A stretch of DNA of 64,000 nt from the NCBI GenBank assembly GCA_964491515.1, contig CAZBGQ010000004.1:18326-82325 (forward strand), in the 5' to 3' direction. Below the pieces are notes generated by a model, which was given only the letters and a program-made list of their open reading frames with translations, did not search any database and was not told where the DNA came from. The stretch is from an uncultured Candidatus Peribacteria bacterium (GTDB lineage: Bacteria; Patescibacteriota; Gracilibacteria; UBA1369; UBA12473). This document shows positions 3,952 through 54,867 of this stretch, piece after piece. The translations under genes and the position numbers were made by a program. Every line of letters starts with the position of its first letter. Positions within the stretch are counted from its first letter, which is position 1.

Positions 3952-4331
3952 AGTAGTGAAGGCCAATGAAAGGCTCCCCAGAAGAGGAAATTAAAAACAT
4001 AAAAACAAATCATGTCACCAGAATGAGAGTAACGATTGTAACGGCTCCAGAGTTATCTATACACGTACGATTGAAGGATAAGACCGCACCTTGAAAACTA
4101 GTGAAAAAAGAGACCGATGAACCTGAAAAGTTCGTCCCGAATATTATGTGAATGATTGAGTTAGTTCTCATGTCTGACCTTATTGCATAGGTCAAAGTTT
4201 AATTTCAAATTACGATTCCTCTTTATGAGGCGACGCCCCCTTACCTATATATAGGCGGCGGTCCCACTAGATTGGATTCCTTATTTTTCTTAGTTAGTTT
4301 CATTATTTATTTTTTTAATACTCTCCACATT

Positions 4332-17170: not shown

Positions 17171-18613
17171 GTGAAATCAGTATTCCGCACCATTGTTCAT
17201 AATAGTTTTTTCCGTACCCTTATTGAGGGGACAAAGGCAATAAGCGGAATTATTCTAGTGGTATTTCTCGCGCGAACTATTGGTCCTGAGCAGTATGGAC
17301 GACTTGCTTTTGCTTTTGCGATAACCGGTCTTGCTTCTATTGTTATGAATCTTGGATTTCCTCTTACTTTTGTAAGAGATGGTGCACGAGATATAAATTT
17401 TTTACGCAAGAATCTTGCCACTGCACTTCTATTTCAACTAATTGCCGCTTTCCTATTATTCATTACGCTGAGTGGAGCTTTGATGGTTTCTCCTCTGTTG
17501 CGCCAAGATACGTTTCTGCTGGTTGTGGCTCTTTTTTATACAATGTTTGGTATTATTACAAATTTTCTCTATAGCTCTTTTCAGGCCACTCATAGAATGC
17601 ATCTAGAGGCTATTGCTGTAGGCGCTCAGCACCTTTCGCTGATTGTTTTTGTGCTCTTCTTTATTTTTTCCATTGGGACAACGGAGGCTATTATGGTGGG
17701 GTATCTGGGGTCAAGTCTTTTGGGATTCGTGATCACACTCTTCTTGGTAAGGAGATATCTTTTTTCCTGGGTATGGAAAATTAATTGGAGTACGGGAAGG
17801 GCATTACTTGCTAAGTCGTGGCCACTTATGGCGGGTAGCGCCCTGAGTACTATTTATTTCTCCCTTGACTCTGTTATGTTGCAATTTTTTGAGGGAAGTG
17901 AAGCGGTGGGAATCTATAGTGCTATGTATAAAATCATTTTTGCATTCTATTTATTCGCCACGCTCTATGGGACTAGTATTTTCCCTGTCCTCTCCCAGCT
18001 TTTTACGCAAGCACGCTCTCAGTTCATGAATCTCTATTGTCGGTCAGTGCAGATGATGGCAAGTTTGGGTTTGCTGATTGGGCTGTTGATTACACTATTT
18101 GCTAAGCCTATCATTCAGCTGTTTTTTGGTAAGGAGTACCTGGCGGGTACTTTGACCTTACAAATTTCTATTTGGTCAATCATGATTTTCTTGGTTGGGC
18201 TGATTTTATATGACACATTGATAGTGGCTGGAAAGCAAAAAGAGCTGCTTTGGAGTGTATTAGCTAGCACGCTACTAAATGCGATTTTTAATATAATTCT
18301 TATTCCCGTCTGGGGGATGGTCGGAGCGGCTATAGCAACGGTAATTGCCCAGGCTGTGCAGTTGTTATTTAATGCGTATCTCTTAAGAAAAATCATATCT
18401 TCAAATTTCTTCCAGATTGTCGCAAAGCCATTACTAATTGCAATTAGCTGTATCTTCTTGTTTTTCTTGCTATCTATGCCCTTTGGCTTATTGGGGGCTA
18501 CCTCCTTATCTGTATTAGTATATATTATACTGTTATTTCTTAGCGGGATTGTACGTAAACAGGAAATTCATCATATGGTGCAAATTTTAATGAAAAGGAC
18601 GAAATTGATTTAA
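17171..18613 (+). CDS. wzx: Wzx-type oligosaccharide flippase (MOP/PST family)
   Basis: 480 aa with about 12-14 TM helices and a typical polysaccharide-biosynthesis-protein layout. GTG start. Confidence 0.75.
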   Translation: MKSVFRTIVHNSFFRTLIEGTKAISGIILVVFLARTIGPEQYGRLAFAFAITGLASIVMNLGFPLTFVRDGARDINFLRKNLATALLFQLIAAFLLFITLSGALMVSPLLRQDTFLLVVALFYTMFGIITNFLYSSFQATHRMHLEAIAVGAQHLSLIVFVLFFIFSIGTTEAIMVGYLGSSLLGFVITLFLVRRYLFSWVWKINWSTGRALLAKSWPLMAGSALSTIYFSLDSVMLQFFEGSEAVGIYSAMYKIIFAFYLFATLYGTSIFPVLSQLFTQARSQFMNLYCRSVQMMASLGLLIGLLITLFAKPIIQLFFGKEYLAGTLTLQISIWSIMIFLVGLILYDTLIVAGKQKELLWSVLASTLLNAIFNIILIPVWGMVGAAIATVIAQAVQLLFNAYLLRKIISSNFFQIVAKPLLIAISCIFLFFLLSMPFGLLGATSLSVLVYIILLFLSGIVRKQEIHHMVQILMKRTKLI

Positions 18614-18730
18614 TATGGTAATGGTGATTTCGTGGCAATGATTCTCTTCACCCTGGAGCAAGAACTTGCTATACTTTTAAGGAAAAATTTAGAAAGCTAG
18701 TGTCTCTTAATATTTAGAATAAACAACATT

Positions 18731-19507
18731 ATGAAAGTAGTAATACTCTGTGGTGGATTAGGGACGCGACTTAAAGAGGAAACTGAATATCGCCCAAAAC
18801 CAATGGTTCATATCGGACCTTGGCCAATATTGTGGCATATAATGAAGCTTTACGCTCACTTTGGATACAACGAATTTATCCTAGCATTGGGGTATAAGGG
18901 TGATTTTATTAAAGAGTATTTTAATAATTATGAGCTCATGAATAACGATGTAACGCTCGAGCTTGGGAGGCCTGACAATTTGGTTGTCCATCAGAAGCAT
19001 AATGATGTTGGATGGAAAATTACATTGGTGAATACCGGGGAGTCCACGCTTAAGGGTGGACGCTTAAAGCGTGTTGAGAAATATATTGATGGGGATGATT
19101 TCATGGTGACTTATGGCGATAGTGTGGCAAATGTGGATATAGGTAAGCTTGTTAAATTTCACCATGAGCACGGGAAATTGGCGACTGTGACAGCAGTAAC
19201 GCCGGCTTCACGGTTTGGGGAGTTAACGATTAAGGATAATTTAATAGAGAGTTTTGTGGAAAAGCCAAAGGTGGGTTCCGTATTAACTAATGGAGGTTAT
19301 TTTGTGTTTAAGAAGGGAATCCTTAGTCATCTCTCTGAGAAGGAAGATTGCGATTTGGAATATGGAGTTTTGGAGAAAATTGCTGGTGACTCACAGCTAA
19401 TGGCATATAAGCATGATGGTTTTTGGGAGTGTATGGATACATTTCGCGACATGGAGTATCTGAATAAGCTTTGGAATGAAGGTAAGGCTGAGTGGAAAAT
19501 TTGGTAA
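18731..19507 (+). CDS. rfbF: Glucose-1-phosphate cytidylyltransferase
   Basis: MKVVILCGGLGTRLKEETEYRPKPMVHIGPWPILWHIMKLY is near-canonical RfbF/DdhA. Confidence 0.9.
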   Translation: MKVVILCGGLGTRLKEETEYRPKPMVHIGPWPILWHIMKLYAHFGYNEFILALGYKGDFIKEYFNNYELMNNDVTLELGRPDNLVVHQKHNDVGWKITLVNTGESTLKGGRLKRVEKYIDGDDFMVTYGDSVANVDIGKLVKFHHEHGKLATVTAVTPASRFGELTIKDNLIESFVEKPKVGSVLTNGGYFVFKKGILSHLSEKEDCDLEYGVLEKIAGDSQLMAYKHDGFWECMDTFRDMEYLNKLWNEGKAEWKIW

Positions 19508-19522
19508 TGTGACGTATCCTTT

Positions 19523-20596
19523 ATGTTTAATAATATTTATAGTGGAAAGAAAATCCTTATAACCGGGCATACCGGTTTTAAGGGGGGATGGCTTGCATTA
19601 TGGCTCCATAGTTTAGGTGCGGATGTTTTAGGGTATAGCTTGGCGCCGCCGACCACTCCTAATTTATTTACAGTTGCTGGTGTTCAAGAAAAGGTAGATT
19701 CCGTAATTGCTGACGTCAGAGACAAGGAGGCGTTGTTAAAAGCCTTTCAACAGCATAAGCCAGAGATCGTTTTCCATTTGGCCGCACAGGCGCTTGTAAG
19801 GCCTTCATACGCTGATCCAGTGGGAACGTACGAAACAAACATAATGGGCACGGTGAATTTGCTTGAGGCGTGTCGTTTGACTCCTTCTGTACGTGCGGTG
19901 GTTAATGTTACAAGTGATAAATGTTATGAAAATACGGGGAAAGCAGGGGGGTATGTGGAGGATGATAAAATGGGAGGTGGGGATCCTTATAGTGCAAGTA
20001 AGGGATGTTCTGAGCTTGTAATGCAGTCTTATTTAAAGTCTTTTTTTAATCCCGATGATTATTCTGAGCATGGTGTCGCGCTCGCATCGGGAAGGGCTGG
20101 GAATGTTATTGGCGGTGGCGATTGGGCGGTCGATCGCTTGATCCCGGATTGTATCCGGGCTTTTGAGGGGAAGAAAGAAATCATTATTCGTTATCCCAAT
20201 GCAACTCGCCCATGGCAATACGTTCTGGAGCCTCTTTATGGGTACCTGCTGCTTGCTCAGTATCTTTACGAAGGCGGGGCACGTTATACGGGGGGATGGA
20301 ATTTTGGGTCAAACAATGAAAATTCAAAGCCGGTCCATTGGCTTGCTGATAAAATGGTTGAATTGTGGGGTGGAGATTCATCGTGGGCCACGGATGGAGG
20401 GCGACTGCTCGCAGAGGCGAATTCGCTTACACTTAATTGTTCAAAGGCAATCAAGCAGCTTGGATGGGAGCCCAAATATGACCTGGGAAGTACGTTGGAA
20501 AATACAATTGAATGGTACAAAGCCTTTGGAAATAAGCAGGAAATGATTAAGTATACTATTGAACAAATTCATTCCTATGAAAAAAATATTAACTAA
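19523..20596 (+). CDS. rfbG: CDP-glucose 4,6-dehydratase
   Basis: ILITGHTGFKGGWLALWL, the YSASKGCSEL YxxxK motif, and the right length (357 aa). Confidence 0.9.
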   Translation: MFNNIYSGKKILITGHTGFKGGWLALWLHSLGADVLGYSLAPPTTPNLFTVAGVQEKVDSVIADVRDKEALLKAFQQHKPEIVFHLAAQALVRPSYADPVGTYETNIMGTVNLLEACRLTPSVRAVVNVTSDKCYENTGKAGGYVEDDKMGGGDPYSASKGCSELVMQSYLKSFFNPDDYSEHGVALASGRAGNVIGGGDWAVDRLIPDCIRAFEGKKEIIIRYPNATRPWQYVLEPLYGYLLLAQYLYEGGARYTGGWNFGSNNENSKPVHWLADKMVELWGGDSSWATDGGRLLAEANSLTLNCSKAIKQLGWEPKYDLGSTLENTIEWYKAFGNKQEMIKYTIEQIHSYEKNIN

Positions 20597-20605
20597 ATTT
20601 TTACT

Positions 20606-21817
20606 ATGAACTGTCGTGCTTGTACCACTGAACTTATTCCATTTTTCTCTTTGGGGGAAATGCCACTCGTTAATAATTTCTTACGAGAAGAAGAGATCGC
20701 TAATGAGGAAAAATATAACTTAGCGGTCGGATTCTGTCCTAAGTGTTATTTAGTGCAACTTTTGGAGACAGTATCTCCTTCGGAATTATTTGTAGATTAT
20801 ATTTATCGTTCATCAACTTCTTCATCTTTCCTTGCGCATTGTAAGGAATTAGCTGCTTATTTTGCAGAGAGGTTTGATCTTGGATCGGATAGCCTAGTAC
20901 TTGAAATTGCTAGTAACGATGGATCTTTTTTGGAACAAATAAAGGCGTTAGATATTCAAATAGTGGGGGTTGACCCTGCTAAAAATATTGCCGAAATAGC
21001 GAATAAAAAGGGGATAAGAACCATGCCGGAGTTTTTTAGTTATTCATTTGCTGAAAAATTAAAAAGTCAGGAGAGTATTCAAGCCGATCTAATTTATGGG
21101 GCAAATGTTCTTGCACATGTGCCCGAAATTATTGATTTTGTAAAAGGGGTTAAAACTATCTTAAAGAATGGCGGAACCGCTATTTTTGAGTTTCCGTACA
21201 TTGCGGGATTAATGGAGAACAAATTTGATACGATATACGATGAGCATGTTTTTTACTATTCTCTTATTGCTTTGCAGAATCTTTTCCGAGAAGCGGGGTT
21301 GGAAATTTACGACGTAGAGCTGACTCCTATGCAGGGAGGCTCTTTGATGATATTTGCTGCTCACCCCGGTCAATTCTCCGTGACTGAGAATATGAAAGAG
21401 CTTAAAGAAAAAGAGATAAGCGAAGGATTCGATCGGATTGAGACTTATCGAGAAATTGAAAGGAATGTTGGTGAATTAAAAAAAGAACTTCTCAGTTTGT
21501 TGAAAAAAATAAAAGATGAGGGCAAAAAAATTGCGGCCTACAGCGCCTCTGCAAAGGGCAATGTCTTACTGAATTATTTTGGGATTGGATCTGATATCCT
21601 TGATTTCATAGTGGATAAAGCTGAATTTAAACAGGGACTCTATACGCCGGGAACTCATTTAATGGTTTATCCGCCGGGGAAAATACAAGAAGAAAAACCG
21701 GATTACCTTTTGGTTTTGTGCTGGAATATTTCGGGAGAAATTGTGAAACAATTAAGCGATTACCATGGTGCTGGCGGGAAATTTATTATTCCGATTCCTA
21801 ATATAAGAGTTTTATGA
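20606..21817 (+). CDS. NDP-hexose C-methyltransferase family protein (Zn-ribbon + class I SAM MTase + C-terminal domain)
   Basis: N-terminal CRAC...CPKC zinc ribbon, LEIASNDG SAM motif, and a ~400-aa three-domain layout like TylCIII-type sugar C-methyltransferases. Confidence 0.7.
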   Translation: MNCRACTTELIPFFSLGEMPLVNNFLREEEIANEEKYNLAVGFCPKCYLVQLLETVSPSELFVDYIYRSSTSSSFLAHCKELAAYFAERFDLGSDSLVLEIASNDGSFLEQIKALDIQIVGVDPAKNIAEIANKKGIRTMPEFFSYSFAEKLKSQESIQADLIYGANVLAHVPEIIDFVKGVKTILKNGGTAIFEFPYIAGLMENKFDTIYDEHVFYYSLIALQNLFREAGLEIYDVELTPMQGGSLMIFAAHPGQFSVTENMKELKEKEISEGFDRIETYREIERNVGELKKELLSLLKKIKDEGKKIAAYSASAKGNVLLNYFGIGSDILDFIVDKAEFKQGLYTPGTHLMVYPPGKIQEEKPDYLLVLCWNISGEIVKQLSDYHGAGGKFIIPIPNIRVL

Positions 21818-22356
21818 TTTTTCAAGAGACTAAATTAAAGGGTGTGTATGTTATTGAGCCTGAGCCATTGGTGGATGGGAGAGGTTATTTCAGTCGTGTC
21901 TTTTGTGAAAATGAATTCAGGGAAAGAGGGATGGAATTTAGTATCAAGCAAGTTAACCGTTCGGTTACAGAAAAAAAGGGTGTAATTAGGGGCATGCATC
22001 TGCAGTCTAAGCCGGTAGAGGAGGCAAAAGTGATTCAATGCACAAAGGGAGCTATCTATGATGTTGCCGTCGATCTAAGGGCAGAGTCGCCCACGTTTAA
22101 GCAGTGGGTAGCTGTTGAGCTTACCGCGGAAAATAAAAAAATGCTTTTCATCCCTGAGGGATTAGCGCATGGGTGCCAAACTCTTGTGGATGAGTGTGAA
22201 GTACTTTATTTCATGTCAGAGTTTTATGAGCCAAAATATTCAAAAGGCGTTTTATGGAATGATCCGCTTTTTGAGATAAATTGGCCAATAGATGATCCAA
22301 CCCTTTCGGATAAGGATAAAATTTGGCCATCATTTAAACCCAATGCAAATGATTAG
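21814..22356 (+). CDS. NDP-4-keto-6-deoxyhexose 3,5- (or 3-/5-) epimerase, RmlC cupin family
   Basis: GVYVIEPEPLVDGRGYFSRVF...IRGMHLQ...KVIQCTKGAIYDVAVDLR...LFIPEGLAHG. Confidence 0.8.
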   Translation: MIFQETKLKGVYVIEPEPLVDGRGYFSRVFCENEFRERGMEFSIKQVNRSVTEKKGVIRGMHLQSKPVEEAKVIQCTKGAIYDVAVDLRAESPTFKQWVAVELTAENKKMLFIPEGLAHGCQTLVDECEVLYFMSEFYEPKYSKGVLWNDPLFEINWPIDDPTLSDKDKIWPSFKPNAND

Positions 22357-23449
22357 GATTCCTATTACGGGACCATCGATTACTAACTTAGAAGTTGAGT
22401 GGATCACAAAAGCAGCGCAGGATGGGTGGGATGAAAATGCCACAAAATATGTAAACCTATTTGAGGGAGCATTTGCGAAATATGTTGGGAGGAAATATGC
22501 ATTGGCGACTTCTTCTTGTACGGGGGCCTTGCATTTGGCTTATTTAGGCTTGGGCTTGAAGCCTGAGGATGAGGTGATTGCTCCCAATGCTACCTGGATT
22601 GCAAGTGTCGAGCCGCTTTACTGGATAGGGGCAAAGGTGGTTTATGCTGATATTGATCCTAAGACTTGGTGCATTGATCCAGCGGACATTGAGAGAAAAA
22701 TCACTCCTAAGACAAAGGCGATTTTGGTTGTTAATTTGTACGGGCATGTAGCGGAAATGGATGAGATTTTGAGAATTGCGAAAAAGCATAATTTGAAAAT
22801 CATAGAGGATGCTGCTGAGTCGGTGGGGTCGGAATATAAGGGTAAAATGGCAGGGAGTTTTGGTGATGCTTCCTGTTTCAGTTTTCATGGATCAAAAACA
22901 CTCACCACGGGAGAAGGAGGCATGATTCTAACGGATGACGAAGAAGTAATCAGAAAAGCTCGTTATTACAATGATCATTGTAAGGACACGGGGAAATTTT
23001 TTTGGAATTTGGAAATTGGATATAAATACAAGATGTCCAATTTTCAAGCCGCCTGCGGGATAGCACAGCTTTCTCGTGTCGAAGAGTTAATTGCTAAGAA
23101 GAGGGAAATATTTAAATGGTATAAAGAACGGCTTGAAGGTGTTGAAGGTGTACAATTGAACACTGAGGCTCCGGAGACAAAAAACACCTTTTGGATGGTG
23201 ACCGTTGTGTTTGATAAGGGAAATGATTTTGATAAGTCGAAATTAATAAACAGTTTTGATGAATTCGGGATTCAGACACGTCCTTTTTTCTATCCGGTTT
23301 CAAGTTTGCCGGCAATAAATATTCCAGCGGAGACACCTGTTGCATTCGATATTTCGCAACGCGCTATCAATCTTCCCTGCTCTCAAAATATTACCGAGAA
23401 TCAAGTAGATTATATTTGTAAAAGCTTAGTTAAAATCTTAGAAACATGA
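22343..23449 (+). CDS. DegT/DnrJ/EryC1-family PLP-dependent sugar aminotransferase
   Basis: ATSSCTGALHLA, and FSFHGSKTLTTGEGGM with the catalytic Lys retained. This argues for a true aminotransferase rather than a dehydratase. Start taken at the ATG at 22343 (or 22349), overlapping the upstream stop. Confidence 0.85.
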   Translation: MQMIRIPITGPSITNLEVEWITKAAQDGWDENATKYVNLFEGAFAKYVGRKYALATSSCTGALHLAYLGLGLKPEDEVIAPNATWIASVEPLYWIGAKVVYADIDPKTWCIDPADIERKITPKTKAILVVNLYGHVAEMDEILRIAKKHNLKIIEDAAESVGSEYKGKMAGSFGDASCFSFHGSKTLTTGEGGMILTDDEEVIRKARYYNDHCKDTGKFFWNLEIGYKYKMSNFQAACGIAQLSRVEELIAKKREIFKWYKERLEGVEGVQLNTEAPETKNTFWMVTVVFDKGNDFDKSKLINSFDEFGIQTRPFFYPVSSLPAINIPAETPVAFDISQRAINLPCSQNITENQVDYICKSLVKILET

Positions 23450-24480
23450 AGAAAAATATTCTTATCGCCGGTATAGGGGGGGCTTCCTTGGGTACAGAGA
23501 TTTTCAAGAATCTCACAATGGCTGGATATGAAAATATTTATGGAGCGGACATCTCTCCGTACGCTTTTGGATTGTATCAATCGGGTTTTTTGGGGACCTA
23601 CGTCATTAATAGAGAAAAATATATCCAAGATCTTCTTGAGATTTGTGAAAAGATGAAAATTGAAATCATTATCCCCGGGGGAGAAGGCCCTCAAAGTTTA
23701 TTAAACGAAAACAGGAAATTATTTGAAGAAAATAATATCTTATTGGCAATGAATTCTCCGGAGGTAATTAAGCTTTGTACTGACAAAATAAAGACTTTTG
23801 ATTATTTGAGTGAGAGAGGTGTTTCGGTCCCAGTGACAAAAATAATAGATACGCTTGATGACATCGAGGGTTTTTCTTACCCGTGTATTATTAAACCCAC
23901 TAAAGATAGTGGAGGAAGTGCTTTTGTGAGTCTGGCGAATGACAAAGAAGATGCGCATATTTTCTCAGAGCAAATAATGAAAAGCGGGAGAACTCCCCTA
24001 TTTCAAGAGTATATTCCCTTAGCGGAAGGAGAATATTCATTCAGTGTGTTATCTGCTCCAGATGGAGAGATTTTTGGTGGAATTGGCATTAAAAAGAATT
24101 TTGACACAAAGCTAACATATACATTTAAGTCTGACCAAGGCATCATCTCTGGAGGTTATAGTCAGGGCTTGATTAGTGATTTTCCTGAAATATTTAGTCA
24201 AGTTTGCGAAATCTCAAAAGTTCTAAAAAGCCGTGGTCCTCTAAATATAGAAGGCAGAGTTGTAAACGGTAAGTTTTTGCCGTTCGAAGTTAACCCACGA
24301 TTTAGCGCATCGACTTATCTTTGGGCTAAGGCAGGGTTTAATGATGTAGATAATTTCATCAGATTAATGGACGACACGTCATTTGATAAAAAACCTTTGA
24401 TCACGGAAGGGTTTTGCTTGAGGTCCTTTAGTGAAATATTTATCTCTAAGGATCAGATTAAGGGGGCGCGTAATATTTAA
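23446..24480 (+). CDS. ATP-grasp ligase (amide-bond forming), substrate unknown
   Basis: Pre-ATP-grasp N-domain, then DKIKTFDYLSERGVSVP...YPCIIKPTKDSGGSAFV...FQEYI...LNIEGRV...FEVNPRFS. ATGA overlap with the aminotransferase gene. Confidence 0.7.
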   Translation: MKKNILIAGIGGASLGTEIFKNLTMAGYENIYGADISPYAFGLYQSGFLGTYVINREKYIQDLLEICEKMKIEIIIPGGEGPQSLLNENRKLFEENNILLAMNSPEVIKLCTDKIKTFDYLSERGVSVPVTKIIDTLDDIEGFSYPCIIKPTKDSGGSAFVSLANDKEDAHIFSEQIMKSGRTPLFQEYIPLAEGEYSFSVLSAPDGEIFGGIGIKKNFDTKLTYTFKSDQGIISGGYSQGLISDFPEIFSQVCEISKVLKSRGPLNIEGRVVNGKFLPFEVNPRFSASTYLWAKAGFNDVDNFIRLMDDTSFDKKPLITEGFCLRSFSEIFISKDQIKGARNI

Positions 24481-24497
24481 AATAATAGTATAAACTT

Positions 24498-25751
24498 ATG
24501 TCACATAGTAAAAGTCATAAAATTTGGGACGAACAAGGCGGATATATTCTCCCTGCAACTAAGTTTATTGAGCCAGTACTTCAGAGAGGAGAGGGTTCTT
24601 ATGTGTGGGATGTTGATGGGAATAAATATCTTGATTTAAATGGTGGGCAATTTTGTTTGTGTTTTGGGCATGCCTATCCAGCACTTACTGAGGCAGTTAT
24701 CAAGCAAATGGGAAATATTATCCATACAAATACCAATACCATCTCGAGTATTGTTTTTGACGCACTTCAGGAACTTATTGAAATTAATAACGAGGTATTT
24801 AAGGCGGGGATTTTACTATCAACTGGAGCTGAAGCGGTTGAGTTCGCGTTACGCTTTTCTAAGTCAATTAAGAAAAGTAACAAGATGATTTATTTGAATG
24901 AGGGCTACCACGGGTCGTCTCTTGGGGCTCAGAGCGTTTCTTCTTATGGGAAATGGGCTTTCCCCACGGTCGATGAAACATTCGGTGTTTCTGTCCCAAG
25001 AACAACGAGCGAGATTGGTCCTTGTGTAGAAAAAATAGAACAAATTTTCAGAGAAAATCCTAAGGAAATTGCTGCTCTAATAATGGAGCCGATTTTGGGG
25101 GCGGGCGGAATGATTTTCCCTTCTGCGGATTTCTTGAAAAAAGTTAGAGAGCTCTGCGATAAGTACAAGGCGATTTTAATTTTCGATGAATGTCAGACAG
25201 GCTTTGGTAGAACGGGGAGTTGGTTTTGTTATCAAAAGTACAATGTTTCCCCAGATATTCTTGTCTTTGCTAAGGCGGGGGGGGCAGGCATGCCTGTCTC
25301 GGGAGTATTATTTGTTGAAAATCTTGCCGAAGAGATGAGGAGTGGAAATCTCACTCATTTTGCTTCACATCAGAACGATCCTTTGTCGGCAGCTATTACC
25401 CTATTTGTTATTGAGGAAATTAAGAAGAAAAATATACTGGAGAAAGTTGGAAATTCCGGGGAAATTTTCTTAGATAAGATAACTGAAATTTCCACTCAAA
25501 GTGATGTGATAGTTAATCCTCGGGGTGTAGGTTTAATGATAGCTTTCGATATAAATGAAGACCTTTTTGATCGTGAAAAAAATCCAGGCCATGAATTGAT
25601 GAACAAATTACTCTCTCGGGGGATAATTATTCAATGTATTAATCGAGGAAGAACTTTTAGGATAATACCAAATTTTTTAATTTCCACTGAGGAAATTGAT
25701 TTTTTCATTGAGAAACTAAACGAATCTCTTAACGAATTTTTAAATGAATAA
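24498..25751 (+). CDS. Class III (omega) aminotransferase
   Basis: LDLNGGQFCLCFGHAYP, DECQTGFGRTGSWF, and FAKAGGAGMPVSG (Schiff-base Lys). Confidence 0.85.
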   Translation: MSHSKSHKIWDEQGGYILPATKFIEPVLQRGEGSYVWDVDGNKYLDLNGGQFCLCFGHAYPALTEAVIKQMGNIIHTNTNTISSIVFDALQELIEINNEVFKAGILLSTGAEAVEFALRFSKSIKKSNKMIYLNEGYHGSSLGAQSVSSYGKWAFPTVDETFGVSVPRTTSEIGPCVEKIEQIFRENPKEIAALIMEPILGAGGMIFPSADFLKKVRELCDKYKAILIFDECQTGFGRTGSWFCYQKYNVSPDILVFAKAGGAGMPVSGVLFVENLAEEMRSGNLTHFASHQNDPLSAAITLFVIEEIKKKNILEKVGNSGEIFLDKITEISTQSDVIVNPRGVGLMIAFDINEDLFDREKNPGHELMNKLLSRGIIIQCINRGRTFRIIPNFLISTEEIDFFIEKLNESLNEFLNE

Positions 25752-26901
25752 TTTTGTTTTTCACAACCCCACTAGAATTGTTTTTGGGAAAGGAACTATT
25801 GCTAGACTTTCTGAATTTATTCCTCAAGGAGCCAGGGTTTTATTGTTGTCTGGTAAAGGGTCAATGCATAAAAATGGTGTATATGAGCAAGTTATCTCGG
25901 CAATTGGGGATAAAATTGTGGTCGAATATGAGGGGATTTTACCTAATCCCACTCACGAACAATGTAGTAGCGTACAAAAAAAGATAGAGGGGGTTGGAGT
26001 GAATTTCATTCTGGCTGTGGGAGGCGGATCCGTAATTGATGCAGCAAAATATATTGCAGTCGGCTCTCAGTTGCCCCCTTCTGAGTCCTGTTGGGACTTT
26101 ATTGAGAAGAGGGTACCGATTAGTAAGGCTTTGCCAGTTGGAGTAATTTTAACAGCACCGGCTTCTGGCTCTGAGATGAATTCTAATGCTGTTATATTGA
26201 ATGTGGAGAAAAAGTCAAAACGCTCACTGAAGAGCGAAAAAGTATTTCCGTCATTTTCAATTTTAGATCCAGAAGTAACAAAAACACTCTCTCCCAGACA
26301 AATTAGAAATGGTATTATTGATTCTTATTCTCATGTGATTGAACAATATTTGACCTTCCCGTCAGATTCTCGAATTCAAGATAGGTTTTCGGAGAGTATT
26401 TTGTCGACCTTGCTTGAAATAGGACCACTTCTCATTGCAAATCCTTATGATTATGATTTGATGGCAAATTTTATGTGGGCATCTACGTGCGCTTTAAACG
26501 GATTTATTTGTTGCGGGGTTCCACAAGATTGGAGTACTCATATGATTGGGCACGAACTCACTGCTGAATATGGGCTTGTTCACGCAGAATCAATTGGGAT
26601 TGTTTTGCCCGGGGTAATGAATTACATGAAGCAGGAAAAAAGGGAAAAGCTTATTCAATACGGAAGAAGAGTTTTTGGATTGGGTGAAATGACTGATGAC
26701 GAAATTGTCCAGGAAGCTATTGATAAGACTGAAGAGTTTTTTGTGTCACTTGGTCAATCTGTCCGGTTTTCCGATTTTGGACTGACTGAAGAAGTTGCTG
26801 ATAATATTTCAAAGAAGATTGGGAGTTACCCGGTAAAAATTGGAGAGAGGAAAAATATAGGGGAGAAAGAGGTACGGGAAATTTTGCTAATGAGAGTTTA
26901 G
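25744..26901 (+). CDS. Iron-containing (group III) alcohol dehydrogenase, YqhD/BdhA-like
   Basis: FHNPTRIVFGKG...AVGGGSVIDAAKYIA...STHMIGHELTAEYGLVHAES. Confidence 0.85.
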   Translation: MNNFVFHNPTRIVFGKGTIARLSEFIPQGARVLLLSGKGSMHKNGVYEQVISAIGDKIVVEYEGILPNPTHEQCSSVQKKIEGVGVNFILAVGGGSVIDAAKYIAVGSQLPPSESCWDFIEKRVPISKALPVGVILTAPASGSEMNSNAVILNVEKKSKRSLKSEKVFPSFSILDPEVTKTLSPRQIRNGIIDSYSHVIEQYLTFPSDSRIQDRFSESILSTLLEIGPLLIANPYDYDLMANFMWASTCALNGFICCGVPQDWSTHMIGHELTAEYGLVHAESIGIVLPGVMNYMKQEKREKLIQYGRRVFGLGEMTDDEIVQEAIDKTEEFFVSLGQSVRFSDFGLTEEVADNISKKIGSYPVKIGERKNIGEKEVREILLMRV

Positions 26902-26996: not shown

Positions 26997-27734
26997 ATGG
27001 ATCCAATCGAACAGTTCAAATCACAAGTTCAGGAAAATATTTCCCTGCAAGGTAAGGATGAGGGTTTAAGTAATTTGGGCATGCAATTTATGACAAATTC
27101 CATGGCTAATAATTACTCTTACAACTTTACTTGGATGGGGCGGCCGATCATACAATTCCCTCAAGATCTGGTGGCTATGCAAGAAATCATATGGGAGGTG
27201 AAGCCTGATCTTATCATTGAGATGGGGATCGCACATGGTGGATCACTCATATTTTATGCCTCCATGTTGGAACTTTTGGGAGAAGACGGTCGTGTAGTAG
27301 CGGTTGATATTGATATTCGCGAGCATAATCGGGTTGAAATTGAAAAGCACCCCATGGCTAAGCGAATTACCATGATAGAAGGATCTGCCATTGATGAACA
27401 AATCGCAGAAAAGGTTCGCGGATTTGTTAAAGAAGGCATGAAGGTGCTTGTCGTACTCGATTCTTTTCACACGCACGATCATGTATTAAAAGAGTTAGAG
27501 CTTTATTCTCCACTTGTTACAAAAGATAGTTATTTGGTCGTATTTGACACGGTAGTGGAAGACCTACCAGAAGATTCTTATCCGGATCGTCCCTGGGGGA
27601 AAGGAAATAATCCGAAAACAGCCGCGTGGGAATTTCTCAAGCACAACGATCGATTCGTGATTGATGAAAAAATTCAAAATAAGCTGGTCATGACGGTGGC
27701 CCCAGATGGGTATCTGAAATGCATTAAAGATTAA
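26997..27734 (+). CDS. CmcI (cephalosporin hydroxylase)-family SAM-dependent methyltransferase
   Basis: YNFTWMGRPIIQFPQDLVAMQEIIWEVKPDLIIEMGIAHGGSLIFYA is characteristic of the CmcI fold found in sugar O-methylation loci. Confidence 0.75.
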   Translation: MDPIEQFKSQVQENISLQGKDEGLSNLGMQFMTNSMANNYSYNFTWMGRPIIQFPQDLVAMQEIIWEVKPDLIIEMGIAHGGSLIFYASMLELLGEDGRVVAVDIDIREHNRVEIEKHPMAKRITMIEGSAIDEQIAEKVRGFVKEGMKVLVVLDSFHTHDHVLKELELYSPLVTKDSYLVVFDTVVEDLPEDSYPDRPWGKGNNPKTAAWEFLKHNDRFVIDEKIQNKLVMTVAPDGYLKCIKD

Positions 27735-27741
27735 CACTTCA

Positions 27742-28698
27742 ATGAGTAGTCCTCCCCCTCTGATTAGTATCGGCTTGCCAACCTATAATCGGGCTTCTCT
27801 TCTTTGTGACGCCCTTGATTCTTTATTGGGGCAGACATACAAAAATATTGAATTAATCATCTCTGACAATGCGTCCATGGACGGCACGCAGGAGATTTGC
27901 AGGAAATATGCTGAAAAAGATAAGCGAATAAAGTACACAAGACAAAAGAAAAATATCGGAGCCACCGATAATTTCAATTTTGTTTTAAAGCAAGGAATCG
28001 GTGATTATTTTATGTGGGCTGCGGATGATGATTTGTGGGAGCCAGATTTTGTCAGTGAATTGGTGGAGCTTCATGTTAGAAATAAGGAGGCTGCCGTAAC
28101 ATTTTGCGCCTACGATAACATCACCTTTTCAGGGGAAGTGATCAAGACTGATCCGGTTTTATTTGAGGAAGGCGAGAATCTTAGTAAATACAAACGATTT
28201 AAGCGTTTTCTCTTGGATCGAGGCGGAAAATGTAATTATGTTTATGGGCTGGTTAATAGAGAGTATTTAATTGATGTGAAGGGTTTTAGGGAATTCAAGG
28301 GGATTCCGGATTGTTGTAGCTCTGCAGATACTTTTTTTGCACTTGAAATGTTAGTGAAGGGCTCATTTATAGCAACAGATAAATTGCTTTATCATAAGCG
28401 ATGCAATAGAGATGACTTTATGGCGGAGGAAAAAGTTCAAAATCTAAGCATATTTAGTAAAAAAGCAGTATTCTTAAAGGGCCTTATTGGTTTTGTGAAA
28501 ACACCTTATTATCATTTTTTCCATTACCGAATCATTAACGATATCATAAAAAAATCATTTACTTCTTTCTATGATCGGATTCGACTTTATTTTTTCAATA
28601 CGTATCATTTTTTAGGGTCTGTATTTAGAATAATGCCATGGGCAATGAAACTATTTTTAAGCTTTATAATAGGAATTAAAAGAAAATTAACATCATGA
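27742..28698 (+). CDS. Family 2 glycosyltransferase
   Basis: ISIGLPTYNRASLL...IELIISDNASMDGT...WAADDD. Confidence 0.85.
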   Translation: MSSPPPLISIGLPTYNRASLLCDALDSLLGQTYKNIELIISDNASMDGTQEICRKYAEKDKRIKYTRQKKNIGATDNFNFVLKQGIGDYFMWAADDDLWEPDFVSELVELHVRNKEAAVTFCAYDNITFSGEVIKTDPVLFEEGENLSKYKRFKRFLLDRGGKCNYVYGLVNREYLIDVKGFREFKGIPDCCSSADTFFALEMLVKGSFIATDKLLYHKRCNRDDFMAEEKVQNLSIFSKKAVFLKGLIGFVKTPYYHFFHYRIINDIIKKSFTSFYDRIRLYFFNTYHFLGSVFRIMPWAMKLFLSFIIGIKRKLTS

Positions 28699-29873
28699 AT
28701 AAAAAAATCTACTACTATACCGCTCGTCAGATGCACAACATTCACAAGCAGGAGGCAAAGTGCTCTCCTGAAGGATTTGAATATGTGGCATCCAATCCAG
28801 CCCTATTTCAGACCATTGGGGTAAATAAGCGAAAGGGTAAGTCCCTGTTGGGGACGATTAGTGGTTGGATTTATGCAAAAGTTGTAAAATTTTTAATTAA
28901 GTTAGCAGTTCCTAAGGTGGAATACGCTCGAAATCTGCCAGCGGGTATTGATATGATCCATAGTGGACATTTCCCCCTTCTTAATAGAAAGATTCCATGG
29001 ATGATGGAAATGGAGCAAGTCACTCAACTGACTTGGTACAATCGAAGCGCATTTGATAAGAAGCGTAATCAGCGATATTTTGAGCGGATGTTTAAGCGTA
29101 GTTCATGTCGTGGGATTTTGGCATGGACCGAGGCTGCAAAGCGTAGTGTATTAAGCGGGCTTAATTGCAAGGGGTTTGAGGACAAAATTCATGTCGTGCC
29201 GCTCACTATGGAGGCACGAAAAAATCAAATTAAACGAGATTTTAAGAAGAATCGTGTAAACCTGCTTTTCCTTTCTACTGTTTTTGATCACAAAGGGGGG
29301 ATGGAAGTCTTATTAGCTACTGAGCTTCTTGCAAAATCATATGATGTACATTTAGCGATGGCTTCCAAGGTTCCAGTCGATATTGCAAAGAGGTTTGAGG
29401 ACAATCCTAATATCCATATCAAGGAGCCATCCTCTCGGGATGAATTGATTCAAATGTACGAAGAGGCGGATATTTTTGTGATGCCTGGGCATTTTGAAGC
29501 GTACGGATTTGTTTATTTGGAGGCATTTTCTTTTGGTCTCCCATGTATTGCCGCCGGTGGCTATGCAGCTGAGGATATTATTGAGGATGGGGTACGAGGA
29601 AAAGTTATCCCCAATTATCTATCCCTGTTTGATGAAAATTACATTTCAACGCTAAAAAGTGATCAGCATAGAGAAGAATTGACAAGGAAAACTTTGTCAC
29701 CCCCAGTGGACTATGTGCAAAGATTAGCCAAGGCAATAGAAGAGCTAATCATAAATCCTAAGCTCCGAGAAGAAATGAGCTACAATGCGTATGAAAGTAT
29801 ACAGTCCGGCAAATTCTCTCAAGCACATCGTAGAAAACTTTTAAAAGAGATTTATAATAAAGCACTTAGCTAA
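28695..29873 (+). CDS. GT-B (family 4-like) glycosyltransferase
   Basis: C-terminal EAYGFVYLEAFSFGLPCIA (E-x7-E region). ATGA overlap with the upstream gene. Confidence 0.75.
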   Translation: MNKKIYYYTARQMHNIHKQEAKCSPEGFEYVASNPALFQTIGVNKRKGKSLLGTISGWIYAKVVKFLIKLAVPKVEYARNLPAGIDMIHSGHFPLLNRKIPWMMEMEQVTQLTWYNRSAFDKKRNQRYFERMFKRSSCRGILAWTEAAKRSVLSGLNCKGFEDKIHVVPLTMEARKNQIKRDFKKNRVNLLFLSTVFDHKGGMEVLLATELLAKSYDVHLAMASKVPVDIAKRFEDNPNIHIKEPSSRDELIQMYEEADIFVMPGHFEAYGFVYLEAFSFGLPCIAAGGYAAEDIIEDGVRGKVIPNYLSLFDENYISTLKSDQHREELTRKTLSPPVDYVQRLAKAIEELIINPKLREEMSYNAYESIQSGKFSQAHRRKLLKEIYNKALS

Positions 29874-29884
29874 TAACCATCCGG

Positions 29885-53462: not shown

Positions 53463-53489
53463 ATCTATCCTCCCGACACCCAGTTGCTT

Positions 53490-54866: not shown

Positions 54867-54867
54867 T

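What the first reader, a model, noticed from the sequence alone, without database searches (positions are those of the whole stretch)
18731..23449. CDP-glucose pathway extended by C-methyltransferase, epimerase and aminotransferase: predicted CDP-linked branched 4-amino-4,6-dideoxyhexose
Seen: five contiguous genes, most of them overlapping. They are RfbF, RfbG, a Zn-ribbon/TylCIII-type C-methyltransferase, a RmlC-like epimerase, and a DegT enzyme that keeps its catalytic Lys (HGSKTL). Established: RfbF and RfbG make CDP-4-keto-6-deoxyglucose. The characterised sugar C-methyltransferases of this family that I can recall act on NDP-4-keto-6-deoxyhexoses carried on TDP. Known CDP-sugar branches lead mostly to 3,6-dideoxyhexoses through an E1 dehydratase that lacks the Lys. 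Inference: the gene set predicts a C-methylated, epimerised 4-amino-4,6-dideoxyhexose on a CDP carrier. Add the CmcI-type methyltransferase (26997) and an amide ligase (23446), and the chemistry would resemble N-acyl-kansosamine-type sugars (3-C-methyl, 2-O-methyl, 4-N-acyl) known from Mycobacterium kansasii lipooligosaccharide. A CDP-based route to such a sugar would be new.
Basis: partly seen in the sequence, partly recalled or inferred. Interest (0 to 1): 0.65.

Follow-up and report, generated by a model that had tools for sequence, protein, structure and literature searches.

The report
CDP-linked branched amino-sugar operon
An uncultured marine bacterium, probably from the Candidate Phyla Radiation, carries an operon predicted to build a C-methylated, O-methylated, N-acylated 4-amino-6-deoxy sugar on a CDP carrier; the enzymes are of known types, but this combination has not been characterised and turns out to be common in related metagenomic genomes.

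Summary
The five genes are real and are correctly identified. They are glucose-1-phosphate cytidylyltransferase, CDP-glucose 4,6-dehydratase, a Zn-ribbon NDP-hexose C-methyltransferase, an RmlC-type epimerase, and a DegT aminotransferase that keeps its Lys.

They form the front of a longer operon: an ATP-grasp ligase, a class-III aminotransferase, a YqhD-like reductase, a CmcI-type methyltransferase and a GT2 glycosyltransferase.

- In relatives, the order cytidylyltransferase-dehydratase-C-MT-epimerase-DegT-[X]-CmcI-GT2 is conserved.
- X varies: the ATP-grasp trio, an N-formyltransferase, acetyltransferases or a methyltransferase. That pattern fits tailoring of a sugar amine.
- In one Saccharibacteria locus, an RmlD-type 4-ketoreductase sits where DegT sits here.

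The novelty claim is overstated. CDP-based C-methylated sugars are already known (CDP-cereose and CDP-cillose in Bacillus cereus). The cassette is also not unique to this window; it occurs widely in metagenomes, and the named hits are mostly Candidate Phyla Radiation. What I could not find described is the 4-amino branch on CDP and an ATP-grasp N-acylation arm.

Still unresolved are which carbon is methylated, the stereochemistry, the acyl group and the actual nucleotide preference.

Verdict: a new variant of a known kind, of moderate interest.

The parts
17171..18613 (+). Wzx-type flippase directly upstream (context)
   Evidence: PF01943 119.6 bits, plus MatE. Conserved next to the module in L017 (71% identity) and in L018/L025 (66-67%).
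18731..19507 (+). Glucose-1-phosphate cytidylyltransferase (RfbF/DdhA type)
   Evidence: TIGR02623 equivalog, 330.1 bits against a cutoff of 300.25. The matching gene in L019-L024 hits only this family at E<=1e-25.
19523..20596 (+). CDP-glucose 4,6-dehydratase (RfbG/DdhB type)
   Evidence: TIGR02622 equivalog, 478.1 bits against a cutoff of 278.45. G15xxGxxG and Y156xxxK160 are present.
20606..21817 (+). NDP-hexose C-methyltransferase (TylC3/TcaB9/MtmC family)
   Evidence: PF08421 66.9 bits, PF13489, and PF08484 182 bits. PDB matches: MtmC 4rv9 2e-80, 5t64 2e-74, TcaB9 1e-73. 38% identity to MtmC over 404 columns. Cys3/6/44/47 and Y211-D-E-H214 are present.
21814..22356 (+). RmlC-type NDP-4-keto-6-deoxyhexose epimerase
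   Evidence: PF00908 214.5 bits; TIGR01221 183.5 bits against a cutoff of 155.75. Best PDB matches are true RmlC 3,5-epimerases at 2e-44; WbcA (CDP 3-epimerase) scores 6e-27 and EvaD 4e-19. GMH62LQ, K72 and S-D-K-D168 are present. It overlaps the C-methyltransferase stop by ATGA.
22343..23449 (+). DegT-family PLP aminotransferase, predicted C-4. An alternative start is 22349; the longest ORF starts at 22292.
   Evidence: PF01041 389 bits. Best PDB matches are GDP-perosamine synthases 3dr7 and 3bn1, E 3e-84. Lys184 lies in HGSKTL. RfbH/E1 model scores 181 bits against a cutoff of 423.
23446..24480 (+). ATP-grasp ligase, predicted to N-acylate the sugar 4-amine
   Evidence: PF21360 plus PF02655; NF009402 268 bits against a cutoff of 218. 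AF2 pLDDT 95.1 with a full ATP-grasp fold. It overlaps the DegT stop by ATGA. It occupies the position held by N-formyl-, acetyl- or methyltransferases in L020-L024.
24498..25751 (+). Class-III (omega) aminotransferase, predicted to help make the acyl group
   Evidence: PF00202 276 bits. PDB matches: acetylornithine AT 9e-54, GABA-AT 4e-47. Always found with the ATP-grasp in L017, L018 and L025.
25744..26901 (+). YqhD-like Fe-dependent aldehyde reductase, predicted to help make the acyl group
   Evidence: PF00465 plus PF25137. PDB YqhD 1oj7/4qgs, E 2e-105. Overlaps the class-III aminotransferase by 8 nt.
26997..27734 (+). CmcI/rhamnosyl-O-methyltransferase family methyltransferase, predicted sugar O-methylation
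   Evidence: PF04989 313.7 bits. Present after the variable position in L017, L018, L020-L024 and L004, at 57-81% identity.
27742..28698 (+). GT2 glycosyltransferase, the likely transferase for this sugar
   Evidence: PF00535 105.6 bits. A GT2 follows CmcI, directly or after one intervening gene, in L017, L018, L020, L022, L023, L024 and L004. In L019 the C-methyltransferase is fused to a GT2.
28695..29873 (+). GT1/GT4-type glycosyltransferase (context, same operon)
   Evidence: PF00534 73.5 bits. 82% identical in L017, 38% in L025.
53484..54866 (+). Polyprenyl-phosphate glycosylphosphotransferase, the initiating enzyme (context)
   Evidence: TIGR03025 448.6 bits; PF02397.
54832..56949 (+). 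Wzy_C/O-antigen-ligase-like membrane protein with TPR repeats (context)
   Evidence: PF04932 65.2 bits plus TPR. A similar Wzy_C+TPR gene flanks the cassette in L020 and L021.
4272..8135 (+). 1287-aa protein with three SLH domains, a possible S-layer protein and glycan acceptor (context)
   Evidence: PF00395 SLH, three stretches, 101 bits.

Best explanation
Genes 18731-28698 form one operon. It is predicted to make and transfer a CDP-activated, branched, N-acylated amino sugar for a cell-surface glycan.

Predicted steps:
1. RfbF makes CDP-glucose from CTP and glucose-1-phosphate.
2. RfbG makes CDP-4-keto-6-deoxy-D-glucose.
3. The TylC3/TcaB9-type enzyme adds a methyl group to a carbon next to the 4-keto group, most likely C-3.
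4. The RmlC homologue inverts the remaining enolisable centre. After 3-C-methylation that is C-5, which gives an L-series sugar.
5. The DegT enzyme, which is perosamine-synthase-like and keeps its Lys, transaminates C-4. The product is CDP-4-amino-4,6-dideoxy-3-C-methyl-hexose.
6. The ATP-grasp ligase acylates the new amine with a short carboxylic acid. The class-III aminotransferase and the YqhD-like reductase make or finish that acid. My best guess is an omega-amino acid converted to an aldehyde and then to an omega-hydroxy acid, for example a 4-hydroxybutanoyl or 3-hydroxypropanoyl type group.
7. The CmcI-type enzyme O-methylates a hydroxyl, plausibly O-2.
8. The adjacent GT2 transfers the sugar to a polyprenyl-linked oligosaccharide. 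The neighbouring Wzx and Wzy_C proteins then export and attach it, possibly to the SLH protein or a wall polymer.

What is shown here: the enzyme families, intact catalytic motifs, operon structure, and conservation of the core with a swappable position after DegT.

What is inferred: the order of steps, C-3 regiochemistry, stereochemistry, acyl identity, timing of O-methylation, the carrier nucleotide in vivo, and the acceptor.
For: Family assignments:
- RfbF, RfbG and RmlC score above curated equivalog cutoffs.
- The C-methyltransferase aligns end to end with three solved sugar 3-C-methyltransferases and keeps the four Zn-binding Cys and the Y-x-E-H motif.
- DegT's nearest solved relatives are C-4 aminotransferases (perosamine synthases, E 3e-84). 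The PLP Lys is present. The E1/RfbH model falls below its cutoff.

Operon structure:
- Gene junctions are either 4-14-nt overlaps or gaps of at most 18 nt, except for a 95-nt gap before CmcI.

Conservation:
- The whole module is kept at 70-87% identity in L017 (GT2_16100 is lower, at 55%), and at 48-79% in L018/L025.
- Five further lineages keep cytidylyltransferase-dehydratase-C-MT-RmlC-DegT-[X]-CmcI with a GT2 after it, directly or after one gene. X is an N-formyltransferase with FolD nearby (L020), a SAM methyltransferase (L021), a NUDIX-GNAT fusion (L022, L024) or an LbH acetyltransferase (L023).
- L004 has an RmlD 4-ketoreductase where DegT sits.
- Every nucleotidyltransferase in these loci matches only the cytidylyltransferase model.
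- No RmlD-type reductase is among the ORFs of the window that I scanned.

Supporting enzymes:
- The ATP-grasp is a well-folded, complete ATP-grasp enzyme (pLDDT 95.1).
- YqhD-like reductase, E 2e-105; class-III aminotransferase resembling acetylornithine and GABA aminotransferases.

Precedent:
- CDP-cereose and CDP-cillose show that CDP-4-keto-6-deoxyglucose is a natural C-methyltransferase substrate (PMC7725333).
Against: - There is no biochemical or glycan data. The organism is uncultured, and no RNA runs were found.
- I could not test regiochemistry (C-3 against C-5). The family, from my own knowledge, also contains 5-C-methyltransferases such as NovU, and I had no such sequences for a phylogeny.
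- RmlC homologues cannot be sorted into 3-, 5- or 3,5-epimerases by sequence alone.
- The ATP-grasp has no characterised close relative. Its nearest PDB entry, 2pn1, is a structural-genomics protein. Its structural neighbours include enzymes that use formate or bicarbonate (PurT, PurK, CPS, biotin carboxylase), so the acyl donor is open.
- The direction of the aminotransferase/reductase pair is also open. A class-III aminotransferase paired with an Fe-ADH works from alcohol to amine in daptide biosynthesis; both proteins give weak hits to those models.
- Three of the relatives' cytidylyltransferases score below the TIGR02623 cutoff (254-276 against 300).
Confidence: 0.6

Rival explanations
1. 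The enzyme families are the same but the regiochemistry differs. The C-methyltransferase methylates C-5 (as in noviose biosynthesis) and the RmlC homologue epimerises C-3. Alternatively, the epimerase acts first as a full 3,5-epimerase. Either way the product would be a different branched 4-amino sugar, not a 3-C-methyl, kansosamine-like one.
For: Both carbons next to the 4-keto group can be enolised. From my own knowledge, the PF08484 family includes 5-C-methyltransferases (NovU, CloU, CouU). The RmlC homologue resembles true 3,5-epimerases most closely (2e-44), more than the mono-epimerases EvaD (4e-19), ChmJ (2e-23) or WbcA (6e-27).
Against: All solved relatives with high scores are 3-C-methyltransferases. 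The known CDP-linked C-methyl sugars (cereose and cillose, PMC7725333; vinelose, from my own knowledge) are 3-C-methyl. In L004 the gene set of cytidylyltransferase, dehydratase, C-MT, RmlC, RmlD and CmcI matches exactly what 6-deoxy-3-C-methyl-2-O-methyl-L-talose (vinelose) would need.
Confidence: 0.15
2. The ATP-grasp, class-III aminotransferase and Fe-ADH trio does not modify the sugar 4-amine. Instead the reductase and aminotransferase make an amine from an alcohol via an aldehyde. The ATP-grasp then amidates a carboxylate elsewhere in the glycan, such as a uronic acid. From my own knowledge, this is how ATP-grasp amidoligases of Campylobacter capsules work. The 4-amine would stay free or be modified by another enzyme.
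For: The locus also encodes two nucleotide-sugar 6-dehydrogenases and a TviC-like epimerase, so uronic acids are probably present. Both proteins give weak hits to the daptide aminotransferase and dehydrogenase models, a pair that works from alcohol to amine. The ATP-grasp's substrate cannot be read from its sequence or fold.
Against: The trio sits exactly between DegT and CmcI, joined to DegT by an ATGA overlap. In five other lineages that same position holds enzymes whose only sensible substrate is a sugar amine: an N-formyltransferase with the sugar-type C-terminal domain, GNAT and LbH acetyltransferases, and a SAM methyltransferase. In all three lineages where I saw the trio, it accompanies the DegT cassette. 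A separate AsnB-like amidotransferase is available for amidating uronic acids.
Confidence: 0.2
3. The carrier nucleotide in vivo is not CDP. The RfbF-like enzyme might use another NTP, which would make this an ordinary dTDP- or GDP-type amino-sugar pathway.
For: Nucleotide preference was not measured. DegT's nearest solved relatives use GDP-sugars and the C-methyltransferase's use dTDP-sugars. Several relatives' nucleotidyltransferases score below the TIGR02623 cutoff, and their dehydratases vary.
Against: The window's two enzymes pass curated equivalog cutoffs for the CDP enzymes, while the dTDP models score far below theirs: rmlA_long 52 bits against a cutoff of 320, and dTDP-glucose dehydratase 98 against 365. 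All homologous loci carry the cytidylyltransferase type. B. cereus uses CDP for the same first three steps (PMC7725333).
Confidence: 0.07

Closest known systems
Bacillus cereus CDP-cereose / CDP-cillose operon (BC3358-61; Li et al. 2017, cited in PMC7725333 and PMC6976573)
   Same: The first three steps match: glucose-1-phosphate cytidylyltransferase, CDP-glucose 4,6-dehydratase, and a SAM-dependent C-methyltransferase acting on the CDP-4-keto sugar. Both products decorate a cell surface.
   Different: From my own knowledge of that paper, the B. cereus pathway ends with a 4-ketoreductase and gives neutral D-sugars. Here there is an RmlC epimerase and a 4-aminotransferase instead of a reductase, plus N-acylation and O-methylation arms. 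I could not obtain the B. cereus sequences, so I made no direct comparison.
CDP-vinelose (CDP-6-deoxy-3-C-methyl-2-O-methyl-L-talose) of Azotobacter vinelandii (own knowledge; no paper found in the library)
   Same: It has a CDP carrier, a 6-deoxy sugar, a 3-C-methyl group, an O-methyl group and an L configuration. The gene set in the relative L004 (cytidylyltransferase, dehydratase, C-MT, RmlC, RmlD, CmcI) is what that sugar would need. The window shares everything except RmlD.
   Different: The window has DegT in place of the 4-ketoreductase, so C-4 would carry an acylated amine rather than a hydroxyl. As far as I know, the vinelose genes have never been assigned experimentally.
N-acyl-kansosamine of Mycobacterium kansasii lipooligosaccharide (PMC4403928 for its occurrence; the structure is from my own knowledge)
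   Same: The predicted constitution matches: 4-amino-4,6-dideoxy, 3-C-methyl, O-methyl, N-acyl, L-series.
   Different: Stereochemistry, acyl group and carrier nucleotide are unknown on both sides. The organisms are unrelated. No kansosamine biosynthetic genes have been defined, so nothing could be compared.
GDP-perosamine synthase (Per; PDB 3dr7, 3bn1)
   Same: It is the closest solved relative of the DegT protein (E 3e-84, aligned over nearly the whole length, with the catalytic Lys aligned). It is a C-4 aminotransferase acting on a 4-keto-6-deoxyhexose.
   Different: Its nucleotide is GDP and its substrate is unbranched 4-keto-6-deoxymannose.
TDP-sugar 3-C-methyltransferases MtmC, TcaB9 and 5t64 (antibiotic deoxysugar pathways)
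   Same: Same three-domain architecture, Zn site and Y-x-E-H motif. 38% identity to MtmC.
   Different: Those enzymes use dTDP-linked substrates, mostly 2,6-dideoxy or 3-amino sugars, in actinomycete secondary metabolism. This one sits behind CDP-glucose enzymes in a surface-glycan locus.
WbcA of Yersinia enterocolitica (PDB 5buv), an RmlC-fold epimerase acting on CDP-6-deoxy-D-xylo-4-hexulose (PMC9095892, Table 1)
   Same: It shows that RmlC-fold enzymes can work on CDP-4-keto-6-deoxy sugars.
   Different: It is only a distant match (6e-27, against 2e-44 for true RmlC enzymes).

Membership tests
CDP-glucose pathway entry enzymes (RfbF/DdhA and RfbG/DdhB) | The protein scores above the curated equivalog cutoff for glucose-1-phosphate cytidylyltransferase | tested here: met
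   TIGR02623, 330.1 bits against 300.25. The next best family scores 90 bits.
CDP-glucose pathway entry enzymes (RfbF/DdhA and RfbG/DdhB) | The protein scores above the curated equivalog cutoff for CDP-glucose 4,6-dehydratase and has the SDR motifs | tested here: met
   TIGR02622, 478.1 bits against 278.45. GxxGxxG at residue 15 and YxxxK at residue 156.
CDP-glucose pathway entry enzymes (RfbF/DdhA and RfbG/DdhB) | Kinetic preference for CTP and for CDP-glucose | not testable with these tools
   Needs an enzyme assay.
NDP-hexose C-methyltransferases (TylC3/TcaB9/MtmC/KijD1) | N-terminal four-Cys Zn domain, a class-I SAM domain and the Methyltransf_14 C-terminal domain | tested here: met
   PF08421 66.9 bits, PF13489 49 bits, PF08484 182.1 bits. 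CxxC at residues 3 and 44.
NDP-hexose C-methyltransferases (TylC3/TcaB9/MtmC/KijD1) | Full-length similarity to solved members, with the active-site Y-x-E-H motif conserved | tested here: met
   E 2e-80 to 1e-73 over residues 3-402. Y211-D-E213-H214 aligns with YHEH of MtmC. The catalytic role of this motif is from my own knowledge of TcaB9.
NDP-hexose C-methyltransferases (TylC3/TcaB9/MtmC/KijD1) | Methylation at C-3 rather than C-5 | not testable with these tools
   No 5-C-methyltransferase sequences were available for a phylogeny. Needs NMR of the product.
RmlC-type 4-keto-6-deoxyhexose epimerases | Score above the equivalog cutoff, with the catalytic His, Lys, Tyr and Asp present | tested here: met
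   TIGR01221, 183.5 bits against 155.75. H62, K72, Y128/Y131 and D168 align with RmlC 9j9u. The catalytic roles of these residues are from my own knowledge.
RmlC-type 4-keto-6-deoxyhexose epimerases | Double (3,5) rather than single epimerisation | not testable with these tools
   Sequence does not separate mono- from di-epimerases. After 3-C-methylation, only C-5 can be inverted (inference).
DegT/DnrJ/EryC1/StrS sugar aminotransferases | The fold-type-I DegT domain with the PLP-binding Lys | tested here: met
   PF01041, 389.4 bits. Lys184 in HGSKTL aligns with the Lys of perosamine synthase.
DegT/DnrJ/EryC1/StrS sugar aminotransferases | C-4 regiospecificity | tested here: inconclusive
   The best solved matches are C-4 aminotransferases (perosamine synthases, 3e-84), ahead of C-3 aminotransferases such as WbpE (8e-48) and QdtB (3e-44). 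No NCBIfam equivalog cutoff is reached.
E1/RfbH-type or ColD-type PMP-dependent sugar 3-dehydratases | His in place of the PLP Lys, and a score above the RfbH cutoff | tested here: not met
   Lys is present. NF011936 scores 181 bits against a cutoff of 423. E1 structures match only residues 23-227, at 6e-45.
B. cereus CDP-cereose/cillose four-gene pathway | Cytidylyltransferase, dehydratase and C-methyltransferase encoded together | tested here: met
B. cereus CDP-cereose/cillose four-gene pathway | A terminal NADPH-dependent 4-ketoreductase giving a neutral 6-deoxy-3-C-methylhexose | tested here: not met
   No SDR or RmlD-type reductase lies between 18731 and 28698, and none is among the ORFs of the window that I scanned. 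DegT occupies that step. RmlD is present in the relative L004.
ATP-grasp carboxylate-amine ligases | A complete three-domain ATP-grasp fold | tested here: met
   AF2 pLDDT 95.1 and pTM 0.92. Foldseek probability 1.00 to biotin carboxylase, CPS, PurT, PurK, PylC and L-amino-acid ligase, with TM 0.6-0.7. NF009402 scores 268 bits against a cutoff of 218.
ATP-grasp carboxylate-amine ligases | Identity of the carboxylate and amine substrates | not testable with these tools
   There is no characterised close relative. Only gene position argues for the sugar 4-amine.
Kansosamine-type sugars (4-acylamido-4,6-dideoxy-3-C-methyl-2-O-methyl-L-hexose) | The chemical structure of the product | not testable with these tools
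   Only the set of enzyme activities matches. Needs MS and NMR.

The most novel reading that the evidence does not exclude
Candidate Phyla Radiation bacteria, with this marine lineage among them, commonly carry a previously unrecognised family of CDP-activated, kansosamine-like branched 4-amino sugars. The amine would be diversified by a swappable tailoring position: formyl, acetyl, methyl, or an ATP-grasp-installed hydroxyacyl group. On this reading, the ATP-grasp/aminotransferase/reductase trio would be the first ATP-dependent, CoA-independent N-acylation system for a nucleotide-linked amino sugar.
Probability: 0.35. Interest if true: 0.65.

Novelty: new variant of a known kind. Interest (0 to 1): 0.5.

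Why it matters
If the prediction holds, it would add a new class of nucleotide sugar: CDP-linked, C-branched and 4-amino. CDP-hexose chemistry is otherwise known mainly for 3,6-dideoxyhexoses and a few neutral C-methyl sugars.

It would also supply candidate genes for kansosamine-type and vinelose-type sugars, whose biosynthesis has never been assigned to genes.

It points to an ATP-grasp route for N-acylating an amino sugar that needs no acyl-CoA. That would suit organisms with very reduced metabolism.

The cassette is frequent in Candidate Phyla Radiation genomes, which are small and mostly uncultured. This window gives about 48 kb to surface-glycan genes. The sugar may therefore be a common and variable surface feature of these episymbionts, relevant to how they attach to hosts and to phage recognition.

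All the enzymes are small and soluble and could be tested in E. coli.

Tried and rejected
- Firmicute S-layer glycosylation locus. I assumed this at first because of the SLH protein, about 40% GC and strong GC skew. I rejected it because the nearest named relatives of the AdoHcy hydrolase are Peregrinibacteria and Gracilibacteria MAGs (85% and 79%), the runs are seawater metagenomes, and cassette relatives are mostly Candidate Phyla Radiation. The genes read correctly with TGA as a stop codon, so this is not a code-25 lineage.
- E1-type dehydratase reading of DegT. Rejected.
- Direct comparison with the B. cereus C-methyltransferase and with NovU, TylC3 and EvaC. Not possible.
- Literature searches. 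The terms 'CDP-4-amino', 'vinelose', 3-C-methyl-4-amino sugar names, ATP-grasp with amino-sugar N-acylation, and StrQ with CDP returned nothing relevant. A search for '3-C-methyltransferase' with CDP showed only that Sinorhizobium meliloti also has ddhA-ddhB-C-methyltransferase.
- A metagenome scan with the ATP-grasp. It returned only one locus, which is the same lineage as L018.
- A PADLOC scan of the ATP-grasp: no hit, and not informative.
- An RNA-run search for expression: none listed.
- Structure of the ATP-grasp. The model is confident, but its structural neighbours are generic and do not reveal the substrate.

Full report
**Observation.** The window has a run of same-strand ORFs from 17171 to 34442.
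- 18731-19507 passes the curated equivalog cutoff for glucose-1-phosphate cytidylyltransferase (TIGR02623, 330 bits against 300).
- 19523-20596 passes the cutoff for CDP-glucose 4,6-dehydratase (TIGR02622, 478 against 278).
- 21814-22356 passes the cutoff for RmlC (TIGR01221, 183.5 against 155.75).
- 20606-21817 has the Zn-binding N-domain, a class-I SAM domain and the C-methyltransferase C-domain. It aligns end to end with the solved sugar 3-C-methyltransferases MtmC, 5t64 and TcaB9 (E 2e-80 to 1e-73), with 38% identity to MtmC. It keeps four Cys (residues 3, 6, 44, 47) and a Y-D-E-H motif at 211-214.
- The DegT ORF (PF01041, 389 bits) carries the HGSKTL Lys.

Catalytic motifs of the SDR dehydratase and of RmlC are also intact.

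Two details need correcting. Only two of the four internal junctions overlap. The DegT start is probably 22343 or 22349, not 22292.

**What DegT is.** Its best solved relatives are GDP-perosamine synthases, which are C-4 aminotransferases of 4-keto-6-deoxyhexoses (3dr7 and 3bn1, E 3e-84, nearly full length). C-3 aminotransferases and the E1 and ColD dehydratases score much lower, from 8e-48 to 1e-32. The RfbH/E1 model scores 181 bits against a cutoff of 423. The reading that DegT is a dehydratase is therefore rejected. C-4 specificity is likely but not proven.

**The operon is longer than the finding.** The genes directly downstream are tightly spaced or overlapping.
- An ATP-grasp ligase (23446-24480), which overlaps the DegT stop by ATGA.
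- A class-III aminotransferase (24498-25751).
- A YqhD-like Fe-dependent reductase (25744-26901; E 2e-105 to YqhD).
- A CmcI/rhamnosyl-O-methyltransferase family enzyme (26997-27734; PF04989, 314 bits).
- A GT2 (27742-28698) and a GT1 (28695-29873).

Upstream is a Wzx flippase.

The wider window is one large surface-glycan locus. It holds:
- an SLH-domain protein of 1287 aa;
- nucleotide-sugar dehydrogenases and epimerases;
- further glycosyltransferases;
- an AsnB-like amidotransferase;
- a WcaJ-like initiating phosphotransferase;
- a Wzy_C+TPR protein;
- SAM synthetase and AdoHcy hydrolase.

None of the ORFs I scanned in the window is an RmlD-type 4-ketoreductase.

**Source organism.** The sequence occurs in seawater metagenomes. 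It was not found among the GTDB species representatives. The AdoHcy hydrolase is 85% identical to a Candidatus Peregrinibacteria MAG protein and 79% to a Gracilibacteria MAG protein. Most relatives of the cassette are also Candidate Phyla Radiation (Patescibacteria). I therefore think the window comes from a marine Candidate Phyla Radiation bacterium that uses the standard genetic code. This rests on one marker gene, so confidence is moderate.

**Comparative genomics is the main new evidence.**
- Both the C-methyltransferase and DegT have more than 100 homologues at 60-84% identity. Twenty pairs share exactly the same longest-contig length. I confirmed the pairing directly in L018 and L021.
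- L017 keeps the whole 16-gene module at 70-87% identity, apart from one GT2 at 55%. L018/L025 keep it at 48-79%, with small rearrangements.
- Five more lineages keep cytidylyltransferase-dehydratase-C-MT-RmlC-DegT-[X]-CmcI, with a GT2 following directly or after one gene. X differs between them:
  - a sugar N-formyltransferase (PF00551 plus PF18216) with FolD nearby in L020;
  - a class-I SAM methyltransferase in L021;
  - a NUDIX-GNAT fusion in L022 and L024;
  - an LbH acetyltransferase in L023.
- In the window, L017 and L018, X is the ATP-grasp/aminotransferase/reductase trio. A position that alternates between N-formyl-, N-acetyl- and N-methyl-transferases is what one expects for tailoring of a sugar amine. 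This supports two conclusions: DegT makes an amine, and the ATP-grasp acylates it.
- In the Saccharibacteria locus L004, the order is RfbF-RfbG-C-MT-RmlC-RmlD-methyltransferase-CmcI-GT2. A 4-ketoreductase sits where DegT does here.
- L019 lacks RmlC and fuses the C-methyltransferase to a GT2.
- Every nucleotidyltransferase in these loci matches only the cytidylyltransferase model, at 254-439 bits. The CDP context is therefore consistent, though the dehydratases vary more.

**Most likely mechanism.**
1. CTP and glucose-1-phosphate give CDP-glucose.
2. Dehydration gives CDP-4-keto-6-deoxyglucose.
3. C-methylation follows, most likely at C-3.
4. Epimerisation follows. Only C-5 can be inverted once C-3 is quaternary.
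5. C-4 transamination gives the amino sugar.
6. The ATP-grasp N-acylates the amine.
7. CmcI O-methylates a hydroxyl.
8. The adjacent GT2 transfers the sugar.

The order of steps, C-3 regiochemistry, stereochemistry and the site of O-methylation are inferred by analogy. The analogies, from my own knowledge, are the dTDP-mycarose and epivancosamine pathways (C-methyltransferase, then 5-epimerase) and the known CDP-linked 3-C-methyl sugars.

The acyl group is the weakest part of the model. The class-III aminotransferase resembles acetylornithine and GABA aminotransferases. The reductase resembles YqhD, which from my own knowledge is an NADPH-dependent aldehyde reductase. That suggests an omega-amino acid converted via an aldehyde to an omega-hydroxy acid. 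The opposite direction, or modification after ligation, is also possible.

The ATP-grasp folds confidently (pLDDT 95.1), but its neighbours are generic ATP-grasp enzymes, including ones that use formate or bicarbonate. Its nearest PDB sequence relative is uncharacterised (2pn1). The family is small, with 119 representatives at E<=1e-30 among 1.84 billion proteins.

**Comparison with what is known.**
- CDP-based C-methylation is not new. CDP-cereose and CDP-cillose are listed as established CDP pathways (PMC7725333), made by B. cereus BC3358-61 (PMC6976573, citing Li et al. 2017).
- Sinorhizobium meliloti carries ddhA-ddhB followed by an NDP-hexose 3-C-methyltransferase (PMC4053727).
- An RmlC-fold epimerase acting on a CDP-4-keto sugar is known (WbcA; PMC9095892).
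- From my own knowledge, CDP-vinelose (6-deoxy-3-C-methyl-2-O-methyl-L-talose) was isolated from Azotobacter vinelandii decades ago. The L004-type gene set matches what it would need.
- The window's pathway is therefore the amino version of a vinelose-like or cereose-like route.
- Its predicted constitution matches N-acyl-kansosamine (PMC4403928 for occurrence). The L021 variant would resemble sibirosamine (own knowledge).
- I found no description of a CDP-linked 4-amino-4,6-dideoxyhexose, or of an ATP-grasp N-acylating a nucleotide amino sugar. The library is incomplete, however. From my own knowledge, a CDP-linked hexosamine route has been proposed, but not proven, for the N-methyl-L-glucosamine of streptomycin.

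**Verdict.** The chemical inference is supported and is strengthened by synteny. The novelty claim is only partly right. This is a new variant of a known kind. It is uncharacterised, widespread in Candidate Phyla Radiation genomes, and easy to test in vitro. Interest is moderate, at 0.5. Nothing here has been shown biochemically.

Noticed in passing
window 46253-47602 (-) and 48414-49556 (-): AdoHcy hydrolase and SAM synthetase lie inside the glycan locus, next to at least two sugar methyltransferases. This may be a local SAM-cycle supply for a sugar pathway that uses a lot of methylation.
   Followed up: partly
window 10587-11534, 14807-16099 (+) and 41320-43149 (-): There is a TviC-like 4-epimerase (248 bits), a TviB-like UDP-GlcNAc 6-dehydrogenase (417 bits) and an AsnB-like glutamine amidotransferase. 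Together they suggest that a GalNAcA-type sugar, or its amide, is also made for the same glycan.
   Followed up: no
window 29885-31915 (+): An ORF with no family hit (29885-30553), a beta-phosphoglucomutase-family HAD hydrolase (30492-31160) and a second sugar-1-phosphate nucleotidyltransferase (31178-31915) travel with the module in L017. The HAD and the nucleotidyltransferase also occur near it in L025. Their function is unknown.
   Followed up: partly
window 36067-40162 (-): A VTC-domain protein, an 899-aa CotH-kinase-domain protein and a DUF4956 protein form a three-gene block inside the glycan locus.
   Followed up: no
window 11479-14082 (+), 31923-34442 (+), 34471-36051 (-): Three large ORFs (867, 839 and 526 aa) have no Pfam hit; the first two also have no NCBIfam hit. 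They may be novel membrane or polymerase components of the glycan machinery.
   Followed up: no
window 4272-8135 (+): A 1287-aa protein with three SLH domains sits just upstream of the glycan locus. It is a candidate S-layer protein in what appears to be a Candidate Phyla Radiation genome.
   Followed up: partly
L019 7822-10017: In a 2.78-Mb genome, the C-methyltransferase is fused to a GT2 glycosyltransferase (731 aa). It lies between RfbG and DegT, and there is no RmlC gene.
   Followed up: no
L017 1-5709: Genes resembling LarE, LarB and LarC (nickel-pincer cofactor synthesis), together with DUF362 and CapK_C genes, lie directly upstream of the same sugar module.
   Followed up: no
L020 11110-14653: In the Staskawiczbacteria variant, a sugar N-formyltransferase follows DegT and a FolD gene lies close by. 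This predicts a 4-formamido version of the same branched sugar.
   Followed up: partly
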